Assembly (NCBI RefSeq): GCF_003334355.1
Contig: NZ_QOWP01000003.1
Source of the DNA: Escherichia coli
Lineage (GTDB): Bacteria > Pseudomonadota > Gammaproteobacteria > Enterobacterales > Enterobacteriaceae
Reading direction: 5' to 3' (one strand)
DNA: 64,000 bases
Under the pieces are notes generated by a model. It did not search any database and was not told the origin of the DNA. It saw only the letters and a list, made by a program, of their open reading frames with translations. A program made the position numbers and the translations under genes. Shown here in pieces: positions 35,511 through 35,936 of the stretch. Each line of letters opens with the position of its first letter. Within the stretch, counting starts at the first letter, position 1.

Positions 35511-35936
35511 ATGGTGACTAATTTTATTACTCCCGATGGAGATGATGATATGAATATATCATATGTGAATAGCAACAAAACGACATCTTTACCTGTTGAG
35601 CTAGATGCACTAAATAATAAAGATACCTCTTATGCCAAAGATTTTTCTTATGCTAAAGATTTCTTTTTATACATAGAAACACAGTTAAAAATTGCAAAAG
35701 ATTTTTGTAGACCTGGAGAAGAAGTATCAAGTTCTATTGCAAGTAAAGTTTTTCACGCATTTATTGATTTAGTTAACAAAATCAGGGGTAAGAAAGACTT
35801 TATGTATATTTGCACGCTTTGCTGTTTTGCCGAGGAGGTTAAAGGTGATTATTCTCATTACAGGACCTTTTTATTTGATATTGGTAATCAATATAAGGTT
35901 AAACTTACACAAAGCGGAAAAAATAGCTCTCTTTAA
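35511..35936 (+). CDS. Hypothetical protein (141 aa) in low-GC spacer between aphA and tyrB; contains tandem hexapeptide duplication SYAKDF-SYAKDF
   Basis: ORF only; no recognisable domain; very AT-rich; 18-bp direct duplication 35628-35663; may instead be non-coding. Confidence 0.3.
   Translation: MVTNFITPDGDDDMNISYVNSNKTTSLPVELDALNNKDTSYAKDFSYAKDFFLYIETQLKIAKDFCRPGEEVSSSIASKVFHAFIDLVNKIRGKKDFMYICTLCCFAEEVKGDYSHYRTFLFDIGNQYKVKLTQSGKNSSL

What the first reader, a model, noticed from the sequence alone, without database searches (positions are those of the whole stretch)
35511..35936. Unannotated AT-rich ORF with an 18-bp tandem duplication in the aphA-tyrB spacer
The 1.1-kb spacer between tyrB and aphA is very AT-rich and contains a 141-codon plus-strand ORF and a 74-codon minus-strand ORF (35976-36200). 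The 141-codon ORF carries a perfect tandem duplication (TCTTATGC(C/T)AAAGATTT(T/C), 35628-35663) encoding SYAKDF-SYAKDF. It is unclear whether either ORF is a real gene; the region may instead be an H-NS-bound regulatory spacer for aphA.
Basis: seen in the sequence. Interest (0 to 1): 0.4.

Follow-up and report, generated by a model that had tools for sequence, protein, structure and literature searches.

The report
Frameshift-truncated allele of orphan gene yjbS
The ORF is a strain-specific, frameshift-shortened copy of yjbS, an already catalogued E. coli-only gene of unknown function that sits on a foreign AT-rich insert between tyrB and aphA, so this is ordinary gene decay and not a new element.

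Summary
The sequence features are all present. The window is the E. coli uvrA-yjbR-yjbQ-aphA-tyrB-alr region. The plus-strand ORF is the yjbS locus (K-12 b4621), so it is not unannotated: RefSeq calls an identical-length allele a 128-aa hypothetical protein starting at ATG 35550.

The family's full-length form is 161 or 167 aa. It was intact in 12 unique alleles from about half of the island-bearing genomes sampled. The window allele lost one base at the A-run (35918-35926) and ends 39 codons early. K-12 (67 aa) and O157:H7 (119 aa) carry other, independent lesions.

Intact alleles show weak purifying selection (dN/dS about 0.46; 71 substitutions, none nonsense) and a moderately confident predicted alpha/beta fold. 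No homologue was found outside Escherichia in any library searched.

The gene lies on a roughly 1-kb, 32% GC segment that non-coli Escherichia, Citrobacter and Salmonella lack. The two B2 strains examined carry the Kgu island at this site instead.

The 18-bp duplication is a real in-frame slippage polymorphism, seen as one or two copies, and both states occur in intact alleles.

The 74-codon minus ORF is a chance ORF, broken in 15 of 18 alleles.

H-NS binding here is documented for K-12, but the island is not aphA's native regulatory DNA.

The parts
35278..36259 (.). AT-rich (about 30% GC) lineage-specific island carrying yjbS. It replaces about 190 bp of the ancestral tyrB-aphA spacer.
   Evidence: Homology to the short spacers of non-coli Escherichia and of L005 stops at 35259-35277 and resumes at 36260-36273. 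The segment is present in 4358-4379 of 5426 complete E. coli genomes. It is absent from every outgroup that has an adjacent tyrB-aphA pair.
35550..35936 (+). yjbS, window allele: a 128-codon ORF truncated by a frameshift. Full-length alleles are 161 or 167 aa.
   Evidence: RefSeq annotates the same 128-aa ORF (WP_001339137.1) in strain FCI51, whose spacer is 99.8% identical.
35538..35541 (+). GGAG Shine-Dalgarno motif, 8 nt upstream of ATG 35550.
   Evidence: Read from the sequence. Invariant in all 19 alleles aligned.
35511..35549 (+). Probably 5' UTR, not coding.
   Evidence: There is no SD motif before 35511. Of the 5 variable sites in these 13 codons, 4 are non-synonymous and 1 is synonymous. 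NCBI's PGAP annotation pipeline starts the gene at the position equivalent to 35550.
35628..35663 (+). Two tandem 18-bp units (SYAKDF-SYAKDF), flanked by AAAGAT repeats. An in-frame copy-number polymorphism.
   Evidence: Tandem Repeats Finder. One-copy alleles occur in two different deletion registers, and closely related alleles L086 and L087 differ by this indel. At least 1458 genomes carry two copies and at least 1685 carry one copy.
35918..35926 (+). Frameshift site. The window reads A6-T-AG where intact alleles read A7-GAG or A6-TGAG, a net loss of one base. This leads to the stop at 35934-35936.
   Evidence: Alignment columns 425-440. The exact 80-nt window version is found in 156 genomes.
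35927..36052 (+). Out-of-frame remnant of the last ~41 codons of full-length yjbS (LSLTLEFNDTIIESQKVTGNKAKHILEDIEIFYRNKPDTYY, then stop).
   Evidence: Translation of the third frame. It matches the C-termini of P0001, P0004, P0008 and P0031.
35976..36200 (-). 74-codon chance ORF, antisense to the 3' end of ancestral yjbS. Not a gene.
   Evidence: Interrupted by stops or frameshifts in 15 of 18 other alleles. An ORF of 74 or more codons appears in 20% of shuffles. No family match.
35149..35277 (.). Conserved aphA-proximal spacer, presumably holding the native aphA promoter/5' region.
   Evidence: 87-95% identical to the short-spacer loci L005, L006, L008, L009 and L012. Nucleotide diversity is 0.013 here, against 0.035-0.065 in the island.

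Best explanation
The ORF is the window strain's allele of yjbS. This gene is restricted to E. coli, has no known function, and is carried on a roughly 1-kb AT-rich segment inserted between aphA and tyrB.

The functional form of the gene is a 161- or 167-aa cytoplasmic alpha/beta protein translated from ATG 35550. In this strain a net one-base loss at the A-run (35918-35926) shifts the frame and ends the protein at residue 128. That removes the last two predicted beta-strands and the C-terminal helix, so this allele is most likely a null or crippled version (inferred).

The 18-bp duplication arose by replication slippage between short AAAGAT repeats. It adds six residues in the poorly ordered N-terminal part of the protein and is a tolerated, recurrent in-frame polymorphism.

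The island is xenogeneic-type DNA bound by H-NS in K-12. The gene is probably silent under laboratory conditions (inferred). It is under only weak selection and is being lost independently in several lineages: by frameshifts in K-12, O157:H7 and the window lineage, and by IS1 insertion or deletion elsewhere.
For: Identity of the locus:
- Same synteny as K-12, and 95-100% DNA identity to the K-12 yjbS region in 4329 genomes.

Full-length form:
- 167/161-aa proteins P0001, P0004, P0008 and P0031.
- An intact ORF in L003 and L086-L099. These include 9 evenly spaced samples from the similarity ranking (H3, H6, H9, H10, H11, H23, H25, H26, H27).

Evidence that it codes for protein:
- No 5000-shuffle ORF reaches 167 codons.
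- The 12 unique intact alleles carry 71 substitutions, distributed 12/26/33 by codon position (chi-square p = 0.008). 25 are synonymous against 16.5 +/- 3.5 expected (p = 0.013). None is nonsense, against 3.0 expected.
- dN/dS is 0.46 in the annotated frame and 0.89-1.43 in four of the other five frames. The fifth, the antisense frame that shares its wobble position, gives 0.53.
- The SD motif is invariant.
- The AlphaFold model has pLDDT 72 and pTM 0.70, with its best-predicted part at residues 110-160.

Truncation lesions:
- Alignment, and frame translation.

Foreign, lineage-specific island:
- 32% GC.
- All outgroups with an adjacent tyrB-aphA pair lack any yjbS match, and all but five of them have spacers of only 70-357 bp.
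- No homologue outside Escherichia/Shigella was found among 5.8 billion proteins or 1.84 billion representatives, where every hit was at least 73% identical. Phages and viral contigs gave nothing.

H-NS binding in K-12:
- PMC3661553.

Dispensability:
- Absent from about 19% of genomes.
- IS1 insertions in natural strains and in laboratory evolution.
Against: - Nucleotide diversity inside the ORF (0.044) is no lower than in the flanking non-coding island DNA (0.035 and 0.065). Constraint is therefore weak.
- The selection tests rest on 12 alleles, and their p-values are about 0.01-0.04.
- The absence of nonsense changes is partly conditioned on my having chosen intact alleles.
- I saw no direct evidence of transcription or translation.
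- No function or homologue is known. The structure was predicted from a very shallow alignment (11 sequences, at least 87% identical).
- About half of island-bearing genomes carry disrupted alleles. The gene could already be neutral everywhere.
Confidence: 0.8

Rival explanations
1. There is no gene. The plus ORF is a fortuitous open frame in an H-NS-coated AT-rich spacer, and the role of that spacer is structural or regulatory, for example silencing or tuning aphA.
For: - The region is an H-NS-bound promoter island in K-12.
- The ORF is no more conserved at the nucleotide level than its flanks.
- It has no homologues and no domains.
- Many alleles are truncated.
- The promoter-like site count is at chance level: 6 found against 5.9 expected.
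Against: - A 167-codon frame in 32% GC DNA never arose in 5000 shuffles.
- The frame is kept in 12 diverged alleles with 71 substitutions, with third-position and synonymous excess.
- The SD motif is conserved.
- A moderately confident fold is predicted.
- aphA keeps a conserved 129-bp upstream region in all relatives that lack the island. The island is therefore not needed for aphA.
Confidence: 0.12
2. yjbS is a contingency (phase-variable) gene. The homopolymer runs (T5/6, A6/7) and the 18-bp repeat act as reversible on/off or length switches.
For: - Two of the three frameshifts lie in homopolymer runs, and the 18-bp unit varies between one and two copies.
- The indel recurs in different registers and between close alleles.
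Against: - The tracts are short, at most 7 bases.
- The repeat has only 1-2 copies and is in frame, so it cannot switch expression.
- Each frameshift allele is clade-wide rather than clonal noise. The window type is identical in 156 genomes. The K-12 type occurs in about a third of sampled genomes and carries a second frameshift at the A-run, which points to irreversible decay.
Confidence: 0.04
3. Full-length YjbS is an orphan immunity-type or effector-like protein, left behind from a lost polymorphic-toxin or secretion-system module.
For: - It is small, AT-rich, fast-evolving and lineage-restricted, and it sits at an integration hot spot.
- Weak structural matches to contact-dependent-inhibition immunity proteins (CdiI: 6cp9, 5ffp) and to the type III effectors EspG/VirA, and to other uncharacterised enterobacterial proteins.
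Against: - There are no Pfam, PADLOC or PHROG matches.
- No toxin or secretion gene is adjacent.
Confidence: 0.04

Closest known systems
yjbS (b4621) of E. coli K-12, 67-aa 'protein YjbS'
   Same: Same locus between aphA and tyrB, same strand, same start codon and SD motif. The first 25 residues are identical, and so is the sequence up to residue 46 of K-12 apart from one substitution and the extra repeat unit.
   Different: K-12 has one repeat unit, a -1 frameshift in the T-run and a second one in the A-run, giving 67 aa. The window has two units and only the A-run lesion, giving 128 aa. Both are truncations of a 161/167-aa ancestral ORF.
H-NS-silenced, horizontally acquired AT-rich ORFan genes / 'promoter islands' (Panyukov & Ozoline 2013, PMC3661553)
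   Same: About 30% GC, presence restricted to a lineage, and no homologues. The tyrB/yjbS interval is one of the 78 listed promoter islands with H-NS binding.
   Different: H-NS binding was not tested in this strain. The listed 318-bp promoter island corresponds to the frameshifted 3' part of the ancestral yjbS ORF and DNA downstream of it, not to a promoter region. This is my inference from coordinates.
Kgu genomic island (c5032-c5041) of uropathogenic E. coli (UPEC), inserted between tyrB and aphA (PMC3694859)
   Same: Occupies the same intergenic site. It is seen here in ST131 and E2348/69, and related two-component genes lie next to aphA in E. albertii.
   Different: It is a multi-gene metabolic island with no sequence similarity to the yjbS island: no blastn match in about 1070 genomes. 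It is an alternative occupant of the site, not a relative.
Simple-sequence contingency loci (phase-variable genes)
   Same: Length variation at homopolymer runs and at a tandem repeat inside a coding region.
   Different: The tracts are too short, the repeat is in frame with only 1-2 copies, and the alleles are fixed within clades.

Membership tests
yjbS orthologue (E. coli K-12 b4621) | Located between aphA and tyrB, divergent from aphA and convergent with tyrB | tested here: met
   The window and K-12 BW25113 have the same gene order and strand.
yjbS orthologue (E. coli K-12 b4621) | DNA and protein similarity over the shared part | tested here: met
   The spacer is 96% identical to K-12. 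The N-terminal sequence is the same apart from one substitution and the 6-aa repeat.
yjbS orthologue (E. coli K-12 b4621) | Same product length and frame as the 67-aa reference | tested here: not met
   The window product is 128 aa. K-12's 67 aa results from its own T-run frameshift. This shows that the reference is a truncation. It does not show that the locus differs.
Full-length YjbS (161/167 aa) family | Uninterrupted ORF from MNIS... to ...RNKPDTYY | tested here: not met
   The window frame shifts at 35918-35926. The C-terminal 41 codons survive out of frame at 35927-36052.
H-NS-silenced xenogeneic island | G+C far below the genome average, and presence/absence polymorphism among close relatives | tested here: met
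   32% GC against about 50% in the flanks. Absent from all outgroups with adjacent tyrB and aphA, and from about 19% of E. coli genomes.
H-NS-silenced xenogeneic island | H-NS occupancy and de-repression in an hns mutant | not testable with these tools
   Literature only, for K-12: H-NS ChIP data compiled in PMC3661553.
Phase-variable contingency locus | Long hypermutable tract (homopolymer of about 8 or more, or many tandem units) whose length changes switch the frame reversibly | tested here: not met
   The runs are 5-7 bases. The repeat has 1-2 in-frame copies. The frameshift alleles are clade-wide, and K-12 has accumulated two.
Polymorphic-toxin immunity protein (e.g. CdiI) | Adjacent cognate toxin gene, and a significant sequence or structure match to an immunity family | tested here: not met

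The most novel reading that the evidence does not exclude
Intact 167-aa YjbS is a functional protein found only in E. coli, with a fold that has no detectable relatives. It would be kept silent by H-NS and used only in a particular niche, for example as an orphan immunity-like or host-interaction factor. On this reading, its repeated loss in K-12, O157:H7, the window lineage and IS1 mutants reflects niche-dependent selection rather than neutral decay.
Probability: 0.15. Interest if true: 0.4.

Novelty: already known. Interest (0 to 1): 0.15.

Why it matters
The practical value is for annotation.

- The K-12 reference 'protein YjbS' (67 aa) is a doubly frameshifted remnant of a 161/167-aa gene.
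- RefSeq labels the intact alleles as 'frameshifted' pseudogenes or splits them in two, apparently because that remnant serves as the reference (my inference). It labels the truncated K-12 form as the protein.
- Correcting this would give the family a proper full-length model.
- It would also explain why yjbS looks 'essential' in transposon screens. In my view that is low insertion density in H-NS-bound DNA, not essentiality.

Biologically, the locus is a tidy small example of three things: an orphan gene under weak selection decaying in parallel, an in-frame slippage polymorphism, and one intergenic site that hosts alternative islands (yjbS or Kgu). None of this is surprising to a specialist.

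Tried and rejected
Searches that found nothing:
- Domain and family searches on the 128-aa and 167-aa proteins and on the alignment: Pfam, NCBIfam, PHROGs, PADLOC and PDB sequences gave nothing significant.
- Remote homology: phmmer against 1.84 billion representatives returned only fragments of the same gene.
- tblastn against phages and a peptide-pattern scan of viral contigs found nothing.
- Plasmid hits were mostly records of 0.37-4.9 Mb, which look like chromosomal sequence (my inference).
- Rfam scan of the spacer: no RNA family.

Weak or uninformative results:
- The promoter/terminator scan was at chance level and was not used.

Ideas rejected:
- I first assumed the genomes without the island had the short spacer. 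Only 19 do. The two island-lacking strains I then examined, both B2, carry the Kgu island.
- The start codon at 35511.
- The minus-strand ORF.

Technical failures:
- One script used a wrong aphA coordinate and was redone.

Full report
**What is there.** The window carries uvrA, yjbR, yjbQ, aphA, a 1.13-kb spacer, tyrB and alr, in reverse orientation relative to E. coli K-12. The spacer has 32% G+C. Sliding-window values are 0.28-0.36, against 0.46-0.59 in the flanking genes. The 141-codon plus ORF (35511-35936), the 74-codon minus ORF (35976-36200) and the tandem 18-bp units (35628-35645 and 35646-35663) are all present as described. The two units are identical at 16 of 18 bases and both encode SYAKDF.

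Dinucleotide-preserving shuffles of the spacer give an ORF of 141 or more codons in 0.14% of 5000 trials. They give an ORF of 74 or more codons in 20% of trials. The plus ORF therefore exceeds chance and the minus ORF does not.

**It is the yjbS locus, and it is annotated.** Megablast of the spacer finds it in 4379 of 5426 complete E. coli genomes, at 93-100% identity in nearly all.
- In strain FCI51 (99.8% identical), RefSeq annotates a 128-aa hypothetical protein (WP_001339137.1) that starts at the ATG equivalent to window position 35550.
- In K-12 BW25113 the same start gives the 67-aa 'protein YjbS'.
- In O157:H7 it gives a 119-aa hypothetical protein.

ATG 35550 has a GGAG motif 8 nt upstream, invariant in all 19 alleles I aligned. 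The 13 codons between 35511 and 35549 carry 4 non-synonymous changes and 1 synonymous change, and no SD motif precedes 35511. The real start is therefore 35550.

**The window ORF is itself a truncation.** The protein search returned only Escherichia/Shigella sequences. These include 161- and 167-aa forms that continue past the window's stop and end in ...EFSLTLEFND...RNKPDTYY. In the window this C-terminal segment is still readable in another frame, from 35927 to a stop at 36050-36052.

Alignment shows that intact alleles read GCGG-A7-GAG or GCGG-A6-TGAG at this point, while the window reads GCGG-A6-TAG. That is a net loss of one base at 35918-35926.

Other lineages carry different lesions:
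- K-12 carries a -1 change in a T-run, a second -1 change at the A-run, and one repeat unit.
- O157:H7 has a 10-bp deletion.

I fetched eight further genomes taken at even steps down the similarity ranking; with H3, fetched earlier, that makes nine sampled alleles outside the K-12, O157 and window types. All nine have an intact 161/167-aa ORF. RefSeq nevertheless labels these as 'frameshifted' pseudogenes or splits them in two, apparently because the truncated K-12 protein serves as the reference (inference).

From the evenly spaced samples, allele frequencies among island-bearing genomes are roughly:
- intact: about half;
- K-12 type: about a third;
- O157 type: about 7%.

The exact window-type lesion is found in 156 genomes.

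**Is it a gene?** Evidence for coding:
- In 5000 shuffles, no ORF reached 167 codons.
- The 12 unique intact alleles differ at 71 substitutions, distributed 12/26/33 over codon positions (p = 0.008).
- 25 of these are synonymous against 16.5 +/- 3.5 expected (p = 0.013). None is nonsense against 3.0 expected. The last figure is partly conditioned on my having chosen intact alleles.
- Pooled Nei-Gojobori dN/dS is 0.46 in the annotated frame. It is 0.89-1.43 in the other frames, except 0.53 in the antisense frame that shares the wobble position. For comparison, aphA gives 0.06 and tyrB gives 0.09.
- AlphaFold2 with the 11-sequence alignment gives pLDDT 72 and pTM 0.70. The model has three helices, a five-stranded meander and a C-terminal helix, and the best-predicted part is residues 110-160.

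The window allele stops at residue 128, with its last three residues out of frame. It lacks strands 126-133 and 136-144 and helix 145-160, so it is probably non-functional (inference).

Evidence against strong constraint: nucleotide diversity in the ORF (0.044) equals that of the non-coding island DNA on either side (0.035 and 0.065), and is about seven times that of aphA. I conclude that this is a real gene under weak purifying selection, now decaying in several lineages.

**Origin and context.** Homology to the spacers of non-coli Escherichia and of rare short-spacer E. coli stops at 35259-35277 and resumes at 36260-36273. The roughly 980 bp in between replaces about 190 bp of ancestral spacer.
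- In all loci recovered through AphA that also hold tyrB, no yjbS is present. These include E. whittamii, Escherichia sp. E1V33 and MOD1-EC7003, Citrobacter, Salmonella, Klebsiella and Enterobacter. The spacer is 70-357 bp in all but five of them.
- About 1,050-1,070 E. coli genomes lack the island. Only 19 of them have the short spacer.
- ST131 and E2348/69, both phylogroup B2, instead have a 2-oxoglutarate dehydrogenase gene next to tyrB. This is the Kgu island, c5032-c5041, described as inserted between tyrB and aphA in the UPEC strain CFT073 (PMC3694859).
- E. albertii has a sensor kinase and a sigma-54 regulator next to aphA.

The site is therefore an integration hot spot with alternative occupants.

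No homologue of YjbS was found outside Escherichia/Shigella in any of the following:
- 5.8 billion proteins;
- 1.84 billion representatives;
- phage genomes and viral contigs;
- Pfam, NCBIfam, PHROGs, PADLOC and PDB sequences.

Fold searches gave nothing significant or consistent.

**The duplication.** The unit is flanked by AAAGAT repeats spaced 18 bp apart, which is the expected substrate for replication slippage (inference). One-copy alleles exist in two registers...KDISYAKDF... in K-12 and L094, and ...KDFSYAKDF/R... in O157 and L087. The closely related alleles L086 and L087 (pS 0.03) differ by the indel. It has therefore arisen or reverted at least two or three times.

Both states occur in intact alleles. 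At least 1458 genomes have two copies and at least 1685 have one. The duplicated residues (27-38) lie at the start of helix 1, in a region modelled with low to moderate confidence. I take the duplication to be a neutral in-frame polymorphism.

**The minus ORF.** It is open only in the window, in FCI51 and in L092. In the other 15 alleles it is interrupted. It has no family match.

**H-NS and aphA.** The K-12 interval tyrB/yjbS is one of 78 'promoter islands' bound by H-NS and associated with foreign genes (PMC3661553). yjbS also shows a low transposon-insertion frequency in K-12 (PMC5821084). From my own knowledge I attribute that to H-NS occlusion, since the gene is a remnant in K-12 and tolerates IS1 insertion (PMC4999529; natural IS1 alleles).

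The island, however, is not aphA's own regulatory DNA. The 129 bp next to aphA are conserved in relatives without the island.

**Verdict.** This is a known, annotated orphan gene in a strain-specific truncated form. The duplication is an ordinary slippage polymorphism and the antisense ORF is noise. The finding is of low interest apart from the annotation correction.

Noticed in passing
window 34435-35148 (minus strand); stop at 35005-35007: aphA carries a TGG->TGA nonsense change at codon 48 (G->A on the coding strand, at window position 35005). The acid phosphatase gene is therefore a pseudogene in this strain, unless this is a base-call error. It is intact in K-12 and in the near-identical strain FCI51.
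   Followed up: partly
L100 (E. coli EC96, NZ_CP060748.1) 893-2485: An IS1 element has replaced the whole yjbS island. aphA carries an independent internal stop at codon 115. IS1 copies also sit in the island in several other natural genomes (H1, H12, H69, H84).
   Followed up: partly
L003, L092-L099 (RefSeq annotation of intact alleles): NCBI's PGAP annotation pipeline labels intact 161/167-aa yjbS alleles as 'frameshifted' or 'incomplete' pseudogenes, or splits them into a pseudogene plus an 83-aa hypothetical protein. This is apparently because the truncated 67-aa K-12 YjbS is the reference.
   Followed up: yes
L101, L102 (ST131, E2348/69) and L007 (E. albertii): The tyrB-aphA site holds a different island in phylogroup B2 strains: the Kgu alpha-ketoglutarate island of UPEC. 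Related two-component genes lie next to aphA in E. albertii. Together with the yjbS island and the short spacer, this marks the site as an integration hot spot.
   Followed up: partly
L005, L086, L101, L102: between tyrB and alr (window equivalent about 37510-37720): Some lineages carry an AAA-family ATPase gene plus pnuC between tyrB and alr. The window, K-12 and O157 lack them. This is a second presence/absence polymorphism, one gene away.
   Followed up: no
plasmid collection hit H38 (NZ_CP069917.1, Klebsiella oxytoca, 17,275 bp): A 17-kb record filed as a K. oxytoca plasmid contains a K-12-type yjbS region. This may be E. coli contamination or a misassembly. The other 'plasmid' hits are records of 0.37-4.9 Mb.
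   Followed up: no
window 35278-36259 versus flanks: Nucleotide diversity across the whole island (0.035-0.065) is 6-11 times that of the adjacent aphA 5' end (0.006). Synonymous divergence in yjbS (pS up to 0.17) exceeds that of aphA and tyrB in the same genome pairs (0.01-0.09). The cause was not examined; it could be relaxed constraint, old alleles or recombination.
   Followed up: partly
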